Part shown: one piece after another, positions 5,262-29,538 of the stretch
How positions within the stretch are numbered: position 1 is the stretch's first letter
Layout: every line of letters starts with the position of its first letter
Virus record (IMG/VR): IMGVR_UViG_3300014205_000214
Location: 8,628 to 72,627 of that record
Strand: one strand, 5' to 3'
Length of the DNA: 64,000 nt
Origin: a virus
Taxonomy: Duplodnaviria; Caudoviricetes
The notes under the pieces: model-generated
What the model saw: the letters and a program-made list of their open reading frames with translations, nothing else
Databases searched by the model: none
What the model was told of the DNA's origin: nothing
Position numbers and translations under genes: made by a program

Positions 5262-6141
5262 TAAGAATTTTCCTTATTTGTTCCAACATTTGTTTTTCTT
5301 TATTTGGATTAACGAAACAGTTTTCAAGAGTTCTATAATGATGTTCCAAACAGTCAATAAGTAATTGTCTTACTTCATCTTTTGCTGGAACTTGTCTTAT
5401 TGTACTTTCTCGATAAAGTTTTTCAAGTGTTAATTGTTTTTCTGAGAACCAATTTCTAATATCTTTTTCAGAAATTTCGCCGCGACGAATTGCTTTAAGA
5501 TGTTCTCTATGTCTTTGTAAATCCATAGAACCTTCTGTTAATAACATTTCACACTCATAAGCTAATCTTACTAAGTGCATTGCATATTTAACATCAAATC
5601 CGAATTTATCAAATATTTCTTTTCTATTACCTTCTCGTTTTTGAGAAGCCATTTTATGAAGTTGGGATACGGCGTATCTAATCATTTTTTGATAACATCC
5701 TTTATGAATAAACAAATCTCTACTTTCTCTAACCATACTACCTACAGAATTTATGTAGATAACACAGTTTTGAGGAACATAGAGAGTATCTAACATATTA
5801 GGATTGTTCTCTAAACAAAGCTTAAAGTATTTAATAATAGAATACATCGTTAAATCGTATTCTACATCTTTACCTTTATTAGATTTCTTATCTAGGATAT
5901 GATGCTCTTGAAATTGTTCAAAGACCTTTATATCGTCAAACCCAGGAATTGACCCTTTTAAGTTGGGAAATACATCTTCTTTTCTAGGAATAGCAAAACC
6001 TAAAACGTCAATATCTGAAGTCTTGTTTGAAACTCCATAAGCAACGCTTCCAACCATCACTTCATACATAACATTAGAGGATAACCAGTCAGGCGGACTA
6101 ATTAGCCTCTTATTAATTAATTGAGTTGTTATTGAAGCCAT
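5254..6141 (-). CDS. Pol-beta superfamily nucleotidyltransferase (RlaP-like)
   Basis: GSVAYG...SDIDV, ENNPN, K.AMHLVRL; lies near an RNA ligase. Confidence 0.8.
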   Translation of the reverse strand: MASITTQLINKRLISPPDWLSSNVMYEVMVGSVAYGVSNKTSDIDVLGFAIPRKEDVFPNLKGSIPGFDDIKVFEQFQEHHILDKKSNKGKDVEYDLTMYSIIKYFKLCLENNPNMLDTLYVPQNCVIYINSVGSMVRESRDLFIHKGCYQKMIRYAVSQLHKMASQKREGNRKEIFDKFGFDVKYAMHLVRLAYECEMLLTEGSMDLQRHREHLKAIRRGEISEKDIRNWFSEKQLTLEKLYRESTIRQVPAKDEVRQLLIDCLEHHYRTLENCFVNPNKEKQMLEQIRKILNE

Positions 6142-19675: not shown

Positions 19676-19837
19676 ATGCGAAAATTAAGTGATCAAGATA
19701 AAATTGATATTGTATTAGCATATCTTAAAGGTGAATCTTCTCTTAAACTAGGGCAAAAATATAACGTGTCGAAACAGGCTATTTTAGCTATTTTACGAAT
19801 AAGAAATATTGAAATCAGAGGTAAAAATGGAAAATAA
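19676..19837 (+). CDS. 53-aa HTH-like protein overlapping the GIY-YIG start (not in ORF track)
   Basis: MRKLSDQDKIDIVLAYLKGESSLKLGQKYNVSKQAILAILRIRNIEIRGKNGK; AGGA RBS. Confidence 0.8.
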   Translation: MRKLSDQDKIDIVLAYLKGESSLKLGQKYNVSKQAILAILRIRNIEIRGKNGK

Positions 19838-20675
19838 AATTTACGGTAGAATTTATCTTATTAAAAATTTAACAAACGGGAAAATGTATATTGGGCAAAC
19901 CGTTAAAAAAATAAGTTTGCGATTTTCAGAACATTGTAGTAATGCAAAAAAGGAGAAAGATCTTGGTATGATAATAACAAGAGCTATTAAAAAGTATGGA
20001 AAAGAAAATTTTACTATTGAAGAAATTGACGTAGCTTATAATCAAAAACAATTAAATTTATTAGAAGGTATATATATTTCTTGGTTTAATACGTTAAAAC
20101 CTAATGGATATAATCTAACGCATATAATTAACGGAAAAGGAAAACCAAATAAAACTATTATAGAAAAAATAAGAAAAACAGCAAATAAACCAGAAAATTT
20201 AATAAAATCTTCTGAAAATGGTAAAAAAAGACGCGGAAGAAAAACTAATTTTAAATCTAAATACGTCGGAATATCTATTAGTGGTAGTAAATATAGAGCT
20301 ATTATAGGACATAATCATAAAAATATTAAAATCGGAACTTATAATACTGAGATTGACGCTGCTAAAGCTAGAGATATTGAAGCTATTAAATTATATGGTA
20401 ACGATGCTATATTAAATTTTCCAGAGTTACGTGAAGATTATATAAACAATAAAATTTTTATAAAAAAGAATTCTATTAATCATCAAATAAAATCTGGAGA
20501 AAAAAATATTTATTATTGCAAAAGGGATAAACTATGGCAATATAAATGGTATGATAATATTGAAAGTAAAATGAAATCTAAAACATTTAAATTATTAAAC
20601 GACGCCATTAAATTTAAATATAAAAGATGTTCCCTTGATAAAAATTTCCATTATGATCTAAACAAGCAGAATTAA
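19827..20675 (+). CDS. GIY-YIG homing endonuclease with AP2-like domain (paralog of 721..1524)
   Basis: GRIY...YIG; SKYVGI...IGTY.TEIDAAKARD; start at MENK by homology. Confidence 0.9.
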   Translation: MENKIYGRIYLIKNLTNGKMYIGQTVKKISLRFSEHCSNAKKEKDLGMIITRAIKKYGKENFTIEEIDVAYNQKQLNLLEGIYISWFNTLKPNGYNLTHIINGKGKPNKTIIEKIRKTANKPENLIKSSENGKKRRGRKTNFKSKYVGISISGSKYRAIIGHNHKNIKIGTYNTEIDAAKARDIEAIKLYGNDAILNFPELREDYINNKIFIKKNSINHQIKSGEKNIYYCKRDKLWQYKWYDNIESKMKSKTFKLLNDAIKFKYKRCSLDKNFHYDLNKQN

Positions 20676-21755: not shown

Positions 21756-22089
21756 TATACTTTTCCATTAGTTTTTCATAATGTCTCTCTCCTGTTGGAG
21801 TTAACCCATTATTATCCCAGTTTTGATAACGATCATGAAATTGTTGTAAATCTTGCCAAAAATAAATAGAATGGCCCTTATATTCATTTTTTAAATAATC
21901 TTCAATATTAAGTATCTGATGAACAAAAGCATGTTTTGGTAAAGTTTCTGGATTATTACAACATCTTCCAACAGCACACATATTACCTTTTCTATTGATA
22001 TATTCGCAACCACCAGATGGGCTTAATGATCTTTTTGTGACATCTTGATAAGTGTTTTTTGTTTCGTTAATAATTTGTACTTTTAGCAT
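21736..22089 (-). CDS. hypothetical Cys-motif protein
   Basis: C.Y......CAVG.C...LQ.FHD. Confidence 0.6.
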   Translation of the reverse strand: MLKVQIINETKNTYQDVTKRSLSPSGGCEYINRKGNMCAVGRCCNNPETLPKHAFVHQILNIEDYLKNEYKGHSIYFWQDLQQFHDRYQNWDNNGLTPTGERHYEKLMEKYNDYQNN

Positions 22090-22298
22090 TACAATCTCCT
22101 AATTTTATTAATATCTATGCCATAAATCTTTAATAATTCAGCTACAACAGTTCCATAACATGGTAATCCAACAACCGTACCATTTCTTCTATATTCTTCC
22201 CACATACAAATAAAACCAATAGCGTCTTTTAAAGATTCTTCATTTAAAGCTTCTTGAATAGCTTGGCTTAGGGTTTTTATTTCGTTAAGTGGTTTCAT
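22089..22298 (-). CDS. hypothetical protein
   Basis: TAATG-coupled ORF. Confidence 0.5.
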   Translation of the reverse strand: MKPLNEIKTLSQAIQEALNEESLKDAIGFICMWEEYRRNGTVVGLPCYGTVVAELLKIYGIDINKIRRL

Positions 22299-22310: not shown

Positions 22311-22401
22311 TCAGGGTATGAGAAATCGAATCTCTACTACGACCACCAGCTATTTTAATATGTAGTAAATGCTTATAAGACATTTTGCTGGTAATACCCT
22401 G
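22311..22401 (-). ncRNA. non-canonical tRNA-like RNA
   Basis: 7-bp acceptor CAGGGTA/TACCCTG, T-arm GAGA-TTCGATT-TCTC, anticodon-like loop CT-TAT-AA, no D-arm. Confidence 0.55.
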
Positions 22402-22406
22402 TTATA

Positions 22407-22643
22407 CTAACACCTAGTAATAAAGCTACTACTTTCTGTTTTTTCACAAAAAGTAATTTCAATATATGGACCTGAATAAGCACCTTTAATCATATTGTAA
22501 AACTTTAGCCATTCAGGAGATTCTTGCAAATTAATATAATGACTAACATTTAGTTTTACTTCCATCCTAGCAACAAGCTTATCAGCATTTCTTATATCAA
22601 AATTCTTATCACTAGTATCCCAAATTTCTACTTTAATATTCAC
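22407..22643 (-). CDS. hypothetical protein
   Basis: Packed ORF. Confidence 0.5.
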   Translation of the reverse strand: MNIKVEIWDTSDKNFDIRNADKLVARMEVKLNVSHYINLQESPEWLKFYNMIKGAYSGPYIEITFCEKTESSSFITRC

Positions 22644-23060: not shown

Positions 23061-24344
23061 TTATGCGTTCCATTCCTTTACAAGTCTAACGGCAACATTA
23101 AAAGCGAACTCTTGAAAATCGCTACAAAAATCATCTGCTCCGGTAATATAATGAGATAATTCATGTAGTATTGTATTAAAATTACTAGAATCGTCTACGT
23201 TAATATAAACACAACCATCTTGATAATATCCGTGAGTATACCCACCATTTTGAGCAACACCAGTAAAATTCTTTACTTGCGGCTTAGGTTTATTCATTGT
23301 TAAGCCAATTCCTTCAAGCTTACGCCAAACCTTATTGAAATTCTTAATACAAGTATTACTGGCTTCTTGGATAGTATAACCAGAACTTTCTACTTTGGAA
23401 ATAAAATTCTCTGCAACTGGTATATCAAGAGCCTTAACTAGATCAAGACACCTAACATATACAACTTGCTTACCCTTAGCTTTTGCAGCATTCCCAATCT
23501 TTTCATTATCTGCTGCAACAGCATTACCGAAAATTTCTTCCCAAACTTCTTTTACTAGACTCTTATTAAAGGACCAGTAGTAAAACTTATCTTCCCAATA
23601 CTTAGTAGTAAGATCAGTAAAAGTATTGAAATACTTCTTAAGATATTCTTTATTACGACCAAGAATCTTTCCGCAATAGTCGACACAACTAGAGTCAGAC
23701 ATATTCCTGGACTCATCAATTTTAGTATCATCGCCAAGATTATAATTAAACATACTTTGGGGATTATATTTATTAGCTTCTCGTACAAAGACTCCTTTTC
23801 TATAAATCTTTGCTAATCCATCATTATTCTCGAAAATATCCAAGTCTTGCTTATTAACAAAGTGAAGAAATTTCTGAGAAAGATTATTATAATACTTTTG
23901 AACTTCAGGTGTCAAAGGAATATAAATAGAGGTAGCATTATCATGAGCTTTTGGTGCTTCGACAATATCTAGAACAACATTTTCAACACCAACAGCATCA
24001 ATAGCATTGCTAATAAATTCTCGTAGAGTCATTTCTACAGAATCCCAGTCCATTTCTCCATATTCAAGAGAGAAACCTGTCTTTTCTATTTGACCCTTAT
24101 AGGAGTAACAAACCCTATTATATTGTTTATCTCCCATAAAATCAGGCTTAGAGAAAAACTTTAACTCGTTTTCTCCAAGAAAAATAATAGGATTAAGACC
24201 AAATCTTAGTAAGATATTTACTCCATTTTTTGAACCCGTTCCAAACATTCCAATTTTTTCAGCGTTTCCCCTAGCAGTAGAAACACCCAAAACAGTAAAA
24301 GCTTCAACTGGAGCAATACTAGAATTTTGAATCAAAAGATACAT
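23061..24344 (-). CDS. GHKL-like ATPase fused to a HExxH metallopeptidase
   Basis: IGMFGTG.K, LREFISNAID, C-terminal ILHELSHY. Confidence 0.6.
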   Translation of the reverse strand: MYLLIQNSSIAPVEAFTVLGVSTARGNAEKIGMFGTGSKNGVNILLRFGLNPIIFLGENELKFFSKPDFMGDKQYNRVCYSYKGQIEKTGFSLEYGEMDWDSVEMTLREFISNAIDAVGVENVVLDIVEAPKAHDNATSIYIPLTPEVQKYYNNLSQKFLHFVNKQDLDIFENNDGLAKIYRKGVFVREANKYNPQSMFNYNLGDDTKIDESRNMSDSSCVDYCGKILGRNKEYLKKYFNTFTDLTTKYWEDKFYYWSFNKSLVKEVWEEIFGNAVAADNEKIGNAAKAKGKQVVYVRCLDLVKALDIPVAENFISKVESSGYTIQEASNTCIKNFNKVWRKLEGIGLTMNKPKPQVKNFTGVAQNGGYTHGYYQDGCVYINVDDSSNFNTILHELSHYITGADDFCSDFQEFAFNVAVRLVKEWNA

Positions 24345-29425: not shown

Positions 29426-29464
29426 AATATATCCTAATAAGAAAACAATACAGAAATGTATAAG

Positions 29465-29538
29465 TGAAACCAGAAGGATTCGAACCTTCAACCTACAGAG
29501 TAGAAATCTGTGACTCTATCCATTTGAGTTATGGTTCC
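29465..29538 (-). tRNA. tRNA-Arg(UCU), CCA not encoded
   Basis: GGAACCA/TGGTTTC acceptor, ACTC D-stem, ACAGA-TT-TCT-AC-TCTGT, GAAGG-TTCGAAT-CCTTC. Confidence 0.95.

What the first reader, a model, noticed from the sequence alone, without database searches (positions are those of the whole stretch)
22311..22401. tRNA-shaped RNA with no D-arm and a potential internal pseudoknot
Seen, filling a 108-nt intergenic gap: a perfect 7-bp acceptor stem, discriminator A, and a TTCGATT T-loop on a 4-bp stem. An anticodon-like arm AATGT-CT(TAT)AA-GCATT follows only 10 nt after the acceptor strand. Two crossing helices are possible in A-B-A'-B' order: ACCAGC (22392-22387) with GCTGGT (22350-22345), and ACTAC (22366-22362) with GTAGT (22340-22336). 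It lacks the G3-U70 pair and the length of tmRNA. Inference: a tRNA mimic (decoy for anticodon nucleases or uncharged-tRNA sensors, or an RNase P/Z processing signal), or a remodelled tRNA-Ile(UAU). It sits in a genome rich in RNA-repair genes.
Basis: partly seen in the sequence, partly recalled or inferred. Interest (0 to 1): 0.7.

Follow-up and report, generated by a model that had tools for sequence, protein, structure and literature searches.

The report
Phage isoleucine tRNA with rewired D-arm
This 91-base gene of an uncultured AT-rich phage is most likely a working tRNA for the isoleucine codon AUA whose D-arm is built from two separated strands as a pseudoknot, not a hairpin; tRNA finders miss this conserved non-cloverleaf design and I found no paper on it.

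Summary

It is not a decaying pseudogene.
- It sits exactly where related phages carry a cloverleaf tRNA-Ile(UAU), between the same flanks.
- A true 91-nt homolog in a related phage (L106:5986-6076) differs at 30 positions. 11 of 29 base pairs change on both sides, with at least one such change in each of the five helices, including both pseudoknot helices.
- The same layout recurs in at least 26 distinct IMG/VR phage sequences. These lie inside tRNA arrays, and a few carry Tyr or Arg anticodons.
- ARAGORN and Rfam's tRNA model call none of the 12 members checked.

The strand that normally forms the 3' half of the D-stem follows the acceptor. The 5' half plus a conserved GG lies after the anticodon arm, inside a variable-arm-like helix.

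Decoding of AUA is inferred, not shown: I obtained no expression or charging data.

This scan noted the same layout earlier on other DNA; those were unchecked AI notes, and I re-tested the idea independently here. Four literature searches found no description. The closest published relatives are the (8/4) allo-tRNAs.

The parts
22311..22401 (-). whole rewired tRNA-Ile(UAU) gene, 91 nt, no encoded CCA
   Evidence: Bounded by flanks shared with the cloverleaf tRNA-Ile(UAU) of L108 and L008. CM R1 scores it 115 bits.
22394..22401 (-). acceptor stem, 5' strand (8 nt)
   Evidence: Pairs perfectly with 22312-22319. All 8 pairs change on both sides somewhere in the family.
22387..22392 (-). helix A, 5' strand (the equivalent of the D-stem 3' strand), directly after the acceptor
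   Evidence: Pairs with 22345-22350. Three pairs covary and two C-G pairs are invariant in the 12-sequence set.
22368..22384 (-). anticodon arm: 5-bp stem and 7-nt loop with U33, anticodon TAT (22375-22377), A37 and A38
   Evidence: The loop CTTATAA is kept in all Ile-type family members.
22362..22367 (-). helix B, 5' strand (variable-arm-like stem), directly after the anticodon stem
   Evidence: Pairs with 22335-22340. One compensatory change against L106. Permutation test over 12 sequences: 5 of 20000 reach the observed value.
22351..22361 (-). A/U-rich linker, 11 nt
   Evidence: 9 of 11 nt are identical in L106. The linker is A-rich in the family.
22345..22350 (-). helix A, 3' strand (the equivalent of the D-stem 5' strand), inside the loop of helix B
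   Evidence: It is part of a 10-nt stretch identical to the D-arm of the cloverleaf L-type tRNA.
22341..22344 (-). GGTC, holding a conserved GG(T) that is the likely counterpart of D-loop G18 G19
   Evidence: GGT follows helix A in 11 of 12 distinct members.
22335..22340 (-). helix B, 3' strand
22320..22334 (-). T arm: 4-bp stem and loop TTCGATT
   Evidence: Two of the four pairs are compensated in L106.
22311..22319 (-). acceptor stem 3' strand (22312-22319) and discriminator A22311
24382..24409 (-). consensus sigma-70-type promoter (12 of 12 matches, TG extension) heading the operon that contains the element
   Evidence: No terminator-like site lies between it and the element.
22407..22643 (-). 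78-aa ORF ending 5 nt before the element
   Evidence: Its homologs directly precede a cloverleaf tRNA-Ile(UAU) in L022 (38% identity) and in L108 (49% identity).

Best explanation
The element is a gene for a non-cloverleaf tRNA, most likely tRNA-Ile(UAU) reading AUA. The following steps are inferred. It is transcribed within the operon driven by the consensus promoter at 24409-24382. RNase P cuts it out at C22401, and a 3' processing activity cuts after A22311. CCA is then added. The 8-bp acceptor and 4-bp T stem form the usual 12-bp acceptor branch. Structure shown by covariation: the D-stem is not a local hairpin. The strand next to the acceptor (22392-22387) pairs with a strand that lies after the anticodon arm (22350-22345). 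That second strand is followed by a conserved GG, which would contact the T-loop as G18 G19 do in ordinary tRNA. The second strand sits in the loop of a variable-arm-like helix B (22367-22362 with 22340-22335), so A and B form a pseudoknot. Geometrically, the chain breaks and joins are at places that lie close together in the ordinary L-shape: residues 8/9 lie near 22, 44/45 near 10, and 21 near 46-48. The ordinary L-shape could therefore be kept; this rests on textbook tRNA structure. Charging by the host IleRS and decoding of AUA are also inferred. ATA makes up 25% of the window's Ile codons.
For: (1) Slot. L108 and L109 carry a cloverleaf tRNA-Ile(UAU) between the same 5' flank (end of the homologous 78-aa ORF plus 5 nt) and the same 3' flank. 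L008 and L104 share the 3' flank. L022 shares the upstream ORF. (2) True homolog. L106:5986-6076 gives a 91-nt ungapped alignment with 30 differences; 98.3% of pair cells are paired and 11 of 29 pairs change on both sides, covering acceptor, A, anticodon, B and T. 0 of 500 shuffles reach this, and slid controls give 31-48% paired. (3) Family. CM searches find the layout in 12 and then 26 distinct sequences. Pairing is 95.3% and 88.2%, with 18 and 21 of 23 pairs compensated, against 44-54% in slid controls. (4) Helix B passes a self-versus-cross permutation test: 5 of 20000. (5) Members lie in phage tRNA arrays on the same strand, a few nt from called tRNAs: L383 between tRNA-Gly and tRNA-Asn, and L158 and L329 next to tRNA-Arg. 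(6) The same architecture carries GUA (L341) and UCU (L223) anticodons. L223's 19 canonical tRNAs include no Arg(UCU). (7) Codon use: ATA is 18.6 per 1000 codons and AGA 21.7 per 1000. The window's only canonical tRNA is Arg(UCU).
Against: The published allo-tRNA(UAU) species, the nearest relatives, were inactive in E. coli translation (PMC5389517). The family alignments were fitted to the model's structure and the sequences are related to each other, so the counts overstate independence. The outermost helix A pair (22392 with 22345) is specific to the window. In the short 75-77-nt form helix A has only 3 clear pairs. Helix A plus the anticodon stem may be 2-3 layers longer than the D plus anticodon stack of ordinary tRNA (inference). 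Only about a third of the phage genome is held, so a canonical tRNA-Ile elsewhere cannot be excluded. The host is unknown.
Confidence: 0.65

Rival explanations
1. It is a conserved tRNA-like RNA that is processed like a tRNA but not used for decoding. It could act as a decoy or sponge for host anticodon nucleases or tRNA-binding defence proteins, as a processing punctuation signal in the operon, or as a partner of a toxin-antitoxin-like system.
For: Mukai et al. found six allo-tRNA(UAU) variants inactive in E. coli and two of them toxic, and suggested roles outside translation (PMC5389517). An intact acceptor/T minihelix is enough for RNase P and CCA addition (established knowledge).
Against: It replaces a cloverleaf tRNA-Ile(UAU) in the same slot. 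The anticodon loop is strictly canonical and conserved. The architecture carries at least three different anticodons and sits in tRNA arrays without a canonical tRNA of the same anticodon in the held loci. A decoy would not need a conserved GG, helix A or the 12-bp acceptor branch all at once.
Confidence: 0.2
2. It is a working tRNA charged with an amino acid other than isoleucine, for example serine through its long variable-arm-like helix as in allo-tRNAs. AUA would then be recoded or misread.
For: It has the 8/4 acceptor branch and a long extra arm, as do the allo-tRNAs that SerRS charges regardless of anticodon (PMC5389517, PMC7609411).
Against: The discriminator is A, not the G73 that I recall as typical of bacterial tRNA-Ser. 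The extra arm's loop is engaged in helix A. It substitutes for ordinary tRNA-Ile(UAU) genes in relatives. AUA makes up 25% of Ile codons, so misreading would damage many proteins.
Confidence: 0.08
3. It is a decaying tRNA-Ile(UAU) pseudogene, scrambled by recombination at a homing-endonuclease hot spot. The helices are leftovers of the ancestral stems.
For: ARAGORN and Rfam do not call it. The locus is mosaic, with GIY-YIG genes nearby in relatives. All three anticodon-stem differences from the L-type are GC-to-AT transitions, which mutation bias alone could produce.
Against: The 91-nt homolog in L106 has 30 differences, of which 22 lie in 11 compensated pairs and only 1 breaks a pair. The layout recurs in at least 26 distinct sequences with strong covariation. 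ARAGORN missed 4 of 8 cloverleaf tRNA-Ile copies in relatives, and Rfam matched only 1 of the 6 it was run on, so 'not called' carries little weight in this clade.
Confidence: 0.04

Closest known systems
Canonical elongator tRNA-Ile(UAU) of phages and of the few bacteria that read AUA without lysidine (Rfam RF00005)
   Same: Same genomic slot as cloverleaf tRNA-Ile(UAU) in relatives. Same anticodon loop, T-loop, discriminator A and 12-bp acceptor branch. GG motif for the elbow.
   Different: No local D hairpin. The D-stem strands are separated by the anticodon arm and joined as a pseudoknot, and there is an extra helix B. The acceptor branch is 8/4 rather than 7/5. It gets no RF00005 match even at E<=10.
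(8/4) allo-tRNAs, including allo-tRNA(UAU) (Mukai et al. 2017, PMC5389517; reviewed in PMC7609411)
   Same: 8-bp acceptor plus 4-bp T stem, a long extra arm, UAU as a predominant anticodon, and occurrence in phages and metagenomes. Look-alikes with a D hairpin are abundant in the same IMG/VR scans.
   Different: Allo-tRNAs keep a local D stem-loop (long stem, tetraloop) before the anticodon arm. Here that hairpin is absent and the D-stem is made by long-range pairing. Allo-tRNAs are attributed mostly to Acidobacteria and have Ser or Ala identity.
D-armless mitochondrial tRNAs (nematodes, mammalian mt-tRNA-Ser(AGY); PMC9427863, PMC7609411)
   Same: A short connector (9-10 nt) between the acceptor and anticodon stems, and no D hairpin.
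   Different: Those tRNAs truly lack the D-stem, are shorter than normal, and need adapted mitochondrial partners. This RNA is longer than normal (91 nt) and restores a D-stem and GG from the variable region.
tRNA-Sec (bacterial 8/5) and class II tRNAs with long variable arms
   Same: A lengthened acceptor and a helix emerging between the anticodon and T stems.
   Different: They keep a normal D hairpin, and the loop of their variable arm is not base-paired to the 5' connector.
Permuted or split tRNA genes (Cyanidioschyzon merolae, Nanoarchaeum; from my own knowledge)
   Same: The order of tRNA segments in the gene differs from the textbook order.
   Different: There the mature tRNA regains the normal order through processing. 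Here the outer ends pair directly, and the mature RNA itself would carry the rearranged order.

Membership tests
Canonical tRNA (Rfam RF00005 / ARAGORN cloverleaf) | Score at or above the family threshold (29 bits), or an ARAGORN call | tested here: not met
   No RF00005 match at gathering score or at E<=10 in a 301-nt search. ARAGORN makes no call at default, at ps80/ps60, or in -mt mode at its default threshold; at -mt ps80 it listed 7 low-threshold calls in the 301-nt region, one with a D-replacement loop, which I did not inspect.
Canonical tRNA (Rfam RF00005 / ARAGORN cloverleaf) | Local D stem-loop between the acceptor and anticodon stems | tested here: not met
   Only 9-10 nt separate the two stems.
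Canonical tRNA (Rfam RF00005 / ARAGORN cloverleaf) | Acceptor stem with discriminator; anticodon arm with a 7-nt loop, U33 and R37; T arm with a TTCRA loop | tested here: met
   All three features are conserved with compensatory changes.
Canonical tRNA (Rfam RF00005 / ARAGORN cloverleaf) | Aminoacylation and decoding | not testable with these tools
(8/4) allo-tRNA (Mukai 2017) | 12-bp acceptor branch split 8/4 | tested here: met
   8-bp acceptor directly followed by a 4-bp T stem. The same is true in L106, L118, L134, L282, L350 and L383.
(8/4) allo-tRNA (Mukai 2017) | Long V-arm | tested here: met
   Helix B has 6 bp and starts right after the anticodon stem. Unlike an allo-tRNA V-arm, its loop is engaged in helix A.
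(8/4) allo-tRNA (Mukai 2017) | tRNA-Sec-like D stem-loop (long stem, tetraloop) before the anticodon arm | tested here: not met
   No hairpin is possible in the 9-10-nt connector. The feature is described in PMC5389517.
(8/4) allo-tRNA (Mukai 2017) | Ser or Ala identity elements | not tested
   The discriminator is A and there is no G3-U70. The identity rules come from the literature and were not assayed here.
Rewired-D-arm phage tRNA (the layout defined in this report and noted earlier by this scan) | Connector strand pairs with a strand 3' of the anticodon arm (helix A), with covariation | tested here: met
Rewired-D-arm phage tRNA (the layout defined in this report and noted earlier by this scan) | GG(T) directly after the helix A 3' strand | tested here: met
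   GGT at 22344-22342. Present in 11 of 12 members.
Rewired-D-arm phage tRNA (the layout defined in this report and noted earlier by this scan) | Helix B closes the region and crosses helix A | tested here: met
   one compensated pair; permutation, 5 of 20000.
Rewired-D-arm phage tRNA (the layout defined in this report and noted earlier by this scan) | Occupies tRNA gene positions in phage genomes | tested here: met
   Same slot as a cloverleaf tRNA-Ile(UAU). Other members lie inside tRNA arrays.
tRNA pseudogene | Substitutions indifferent to base pairing | tested here: not met
   Only 1 of 58 pair cells is unpaired between the window and L106, despite 30 differences.
tmRNA | tRNA-Ala-like ends with G3-U70, a tag reading frame, and a length above 250 nt | tested here: not met
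   ARAGORN's tmRNA mode finds nothing. The element is 91 nt and has no G3-U70.

The most novel reading that the evidence does not exclude
Phages encode a whole class of translationally active tRNAs (Ile-UAU above all, also Tyr and Arg) whose D-arm is topologically permuted into a pseudoknot with the variable arm. This would be a second natural solution to the L-shape that works on bacterial ribosomes. It may be favoured because it escapes host enzymes that recognise or cut cloverleaf tRNAs.
Probability: 0.55. Interest if true: 0.9.

Novelty: new variant of a known kind. Interest (0 to 1): 0.8.

Why it matters
[quoted passage not shown] A conserved phage tRNA with the D-arm strands in a different order would be a natural counter-example.

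It would show which tRNA features the bacterial processing enzymes, synthetases, EF-Tu and the ribosome really require. It would also give a ready scaffold for engineered orthogonal tRNAs.

On the practical side, tRNA finders miss these genes. Phage tRNA repertoires, and the codon-usage and host-adaptation analyses built on them, are therefore incomplete, and specifically so for AUA.

The locus also offers a natural experiment: closely related phages carry either a cloverleaf or a rewired tRNA-Ile(UAU) between identical flanks.

Tried and rejected
- **ARAGORN in intron mode at a lowered threshold:** it proposed a tRNA-Phe(AAA) with a 27-nt intron, starting 17 nt upstream of the element. Rejected: two mismatches in the acceptor, no support from homologs, and it ignores the conserved UAU loop.
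- **Plus strand:** it folds less well (z = -1.95) and has no T-loop.
- **BLAST of the 1.4-kb region against GenBank phages:** no match.
- **Exact and near-exact pattern scans of IMG/VR for the window's own T arm, acceptor or D motif:** only chance hits or the L002 contig.
- **Insertion of a small repeated element:** the inserted stretch occurs once in the window.
- **Neighbour-based searches:** homologs of the downstream 69-aa ORF are not linked to any such element. 80 distant relatives of the 427-aa protein from JGI metagenomes rarely have tRNAs nearby, and none has the element.
- **P0005 relatives:** their contigs could not be read because no DNA is held.
- **Alignment quality:** MAFFT alone misaligned the variable region. 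A CM built with helix B in the structure did not align B consistently, so I tested B with my own permutation script instead.
- **Bacterial genomes:** a narrow pattern scan gave a single unclear hit in a Planctomycetia MAG. I do not count it as a member.
- **L009's 179-kb record:** it could not be searched whole.

Full report
**Observation.** The element lies on the minus strand.
- Positions 1-8 pair perfectly with 83-90, and position 91 is an unpaired A.
- A 5-bp stem with the 7-nt loop CTTATAA (anticodon TAT) occupies 18-34.
- A 4-bp stem with the loop TTCGATT occupies 68-82.
- Positions 10-15 are complementary to 52-57 (helix A), and 35-40 to 62-67 (helix B). The two helices cross.
- The element fills the 108-nt gap between ORFs 22407-22643 and 22089-22298.
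- The nested part of the fold is -23.1 kcal/mol, z = -2.36. Helices A and B each add about 5-6 kcal/mol.
- The sequence is identical in three assemblies of this phage, so it is not an assembly artefact.

**Gene finders.** ARAGORN finds only tRNA-Arg(TCT) at 29464-29538 in the window. It calls nothing at the element at default, at lowered thresholds, or in mitochondrial mode at its default threshold. At -mt ps80 it listed seven low-threshold calls in the 301-nt region, one of them with a D-replacement loop, which I did not inspect. Rfam gives no tRNA match even at E<=10 in a 301-nt search.

This says less than it seems, because cloverleaf tRNA-Ile genes of related phages are also poorly detected. 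ARAGORN called four of the eight cloverleaf copies. Rfam matched one of the six it was run on, L021 at 40.5 bits.

**Context.**
- The window is an IMG/VR contig of 72.6 kb with 29% G+C, estimated about 34% complete.
- The element lies in a minus-strand operon behind a 12-of-12 sigma-70-type promoter at 24409-24382, with no terminator-like site in between.
- Relatives were found through the 427-aa protein at 23061-24344. They carry cloverleaf tRNA-Ile(UAU) genes in the same neighbourhood, in three quite different sequence types: L008 and L002; L104 and L019; L021 and L022.
- The decisive case is L108/L109. The homolog of the window's 78-aa ORF (49% identity) ends with the same last codons and the same 5-nt spacer. 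A 74-nt cloverleaf tRNA-Ile(UAU) follows, and then the same 3' flank.

The 91-nt element therefore occupies, to the base, the slot of an ordinary tRNA-Ile(UAU).

**The rearranged order.** I compared the element with that cloverleaf type. It keeps the anticodon arm. It has a 10-nt stretch identical to the cloverleaf's D-stem 5' strand plus D-loop, but this stretch lies after the anticodon arm. A complement of that stretch sits immediately after the acceptor, where the D-stem 3' strand would join the anticodon stem. I recorded this 'permuted D-arm versus pseudogene' alternative before consulting earlier notes.

**A true homolog.** I wrote a structural scanner and ran it over all loci I had fetched. 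It found L106:5986-6076, in a phage whose 427-aa protein is 59% identical to the window's.
- The two RNAs align over 91 nt without gaps and differ at 30 positions.
- On the five-helix pseudoknotted structure, 98.3% of pair cells are paired. 11 of 29 pairs changed on both sides: acceptor 5, helix A 1, anticodon stem 2, helix B 1, T stem 2. Only one cell is unpaired.
- 0 of 500 shuffles reach these values, and sliding the partners by 1-3 columns gives 31-48% pairing.

A decaying pseudogene would not behave this way.

**A wider family.** The first IMG/VR scan asked for the UAU loop placed 22-46 nt before a standard T arm. Its matches clustered at spans of 48-50 nt rather than spreading evenly, which points to a real family. 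Most of them are allo-tRNA-like, with a D hairpin and a long extra arm. Some have the window's layout instead. Two further scans followed: one for the UAU loop, then GGTGGT, then a T-loop, and one limited to TTCAATT T-arms.

A covariance model built from the window and L106 scored 115 and 110 bits on its two seed sequences. It scored 31-51 bits on L383, L242, the L118 group, L304, L134, L350, L282, L341, L223, L158 and L329.
- In that 12-sequence alignment, 95.3% of cells pair and 18 of 23 pairs are compensated.
- In helix A, two C-G pairs are invariant and three pairs covary among CG, GC, AU and UA. Slid controls give 46-54% pairing.
- A second-round model extended the set to 26 distinct sequences, including a shorter 75-77-nt form with a 7/5 acceptor branch. 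There, 88.2% of cells pair and 21 of 23 pairs are compensated.
- Helix B varies in length and offset, so I tested it by permutation. Each sequence's own 5' and 3' B segments form longer helices than mismatched combinations: mean 4.75 versus 3.53, with 5 of 20000 permutations reaching the observed sum.
- GGT follows helix A in 11 of 12 members.

**tRNA company.** ARAGORN and Rfam call none of the 12 rewired elements, but they do call the neighbours.
- In L383 the element sits between tRNA-Gly and tRNA-Asn, with gaps of a few nt.
- In L158 and L329 it abuts tRNA-Arg(UCU).
- In L223 a rewired element with anticodon UCU lies in an array of 19 canonical tRNAs that lacks Arg(UCU).
- In L341 a rewired element carries GUA (Tyr).

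The architecture is thus used for several specificities and is not redundant with canonical genes in the loci I hold.

**Mechanism.** Shown: there is a conserved RNA with an 8/4 acceptor branch, a canonical anticodon arm and T arm, and a covarying long-range helix A followed by GG, which lies inside a covarying helix B.

Inferred: helix A is the D-stem and the GG plays the part of G18 G19. The new chain connections join points that are neighbours in the ordinary L-shape (residues 8/9 next to 22, 44/45 next to 10, and 21 next to 46-48), so the ordinary L-shape could be kept. The RNA would then be processed, receive CCA, be charged by IleRS and read AUA.

AUA makes up 25% of Ile codons in the window's long ORFs, and AGA is the main Arg codon, matching the two tRNA genes present. 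Why the rewiring exists is open.

**Rivals.**
- A tRNA-like RNA not used in translation remains possible at about 0.2. The published allo-tRNA(UAU) species were inactive in E. coli (PMC5389517).
- Charging with another amino acid is less likely, about 0.08.
- The pseudogene reading is contradicted by the covariation, about 0.04.

**Comparison and novelty.** The nearest published relatives are the (8/4) allo-tRNAs (PMC5389517; review PMC7609411). They share the 8/4 branch, the long extra arm and a frequent UAU anticodon, but keep a local D stem-loop. D-armless mitochondrial tRNAs lack the D-stem altogether. Four full-text searches found no description of a tRNA whose D-stem is made with the variable region. 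A 2024 paper states that all known bacterial tRNAs are cloverleaves (PMC11551756).

This scan had already noted the same layout on other DNA. Those notes are unchecked AI reports.

**Limits.**
- No expression or biochemical data.
- The alignments were fitted to the model, and the sequences are related to each other.
- The phage genome is incomplete and its host is unknown.

Noticed in passing
L008:5292-5366, L002:6312-6386, L108:~607-680, L104:3582-3658, L019:~5575-5730, L021:5214-5286, L022:~1913-1985: Related phages carry cloverleaf tRNA-Ile(UAU) genes of three very different sequence types at this locus; L019 also has a tandem tRNA-Ile(GAU). All have G8 G9 instead of U8. Of the six copies Rfam was run on, only L021 got a tRNA match (40.5 bits), and ARAGORN missed four of the eight. 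The locus looks like a fast-evolving or cassette-swapping tRNA slot.
   Followed up: partly
L341:836-924(-) and L223:5452-5535(-): The same rewired layout occurs with a GUA (Tyr) and a UCU (Arg) anticodon, so the architecture is not limited to isoleucine.
   Followed up: partly
L341:727-826(-), L337:6532-6631, L378:1675-1774(-): These 100-nt matches to the rewired-tRNA model (28-38 bits) have a long insertion where the anticodon loop should be. The L341 match sits right next to the rewired Tyr element. Their nature is unknown.
   Followed up: no
IMG/VR loci such as L112, L113, L153, L179: Phage tRNA(UAU) genes with a short D hairpin plus a long extra arm and encoded CCA are abundant. They resemble the published (8/4) allo-tRNA(UAU) group, which was described mainly from Acidobacteria.
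   Followed up: no
L002:5250-6056(-), L021:4152-4958(-); window 19809-20675(+): GIY-YIG homing-endonuclease genes sit next to the tRNA slot in relatives, and a copy lies near the metallophosphoesterase gene in the window. This fits the mosaic gene content between the 427-aa gene and the phosphoesterase gene.
   Followed up: no
window 23886-23915(-): A second 12-of-12 sigma-70-type promoter match lies inside the 427-aa ORF.
   Followed up: no
L106:714-789 and L106:6500-6572: This relative has two tRNA-Arg(UCU) genes, one of them 424 nt downstream of its rewired tRNA-Ile(UAU). Rewired Ile(UAU) and Arg(UCU) are also adjacent in L158 and L329.
   Followed up: no
L341:1479-1578(-): An Rfam wcaG RNA match (47 bits, above gathering score) lies in a phage tRNA-array locus.
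   Followed up: no
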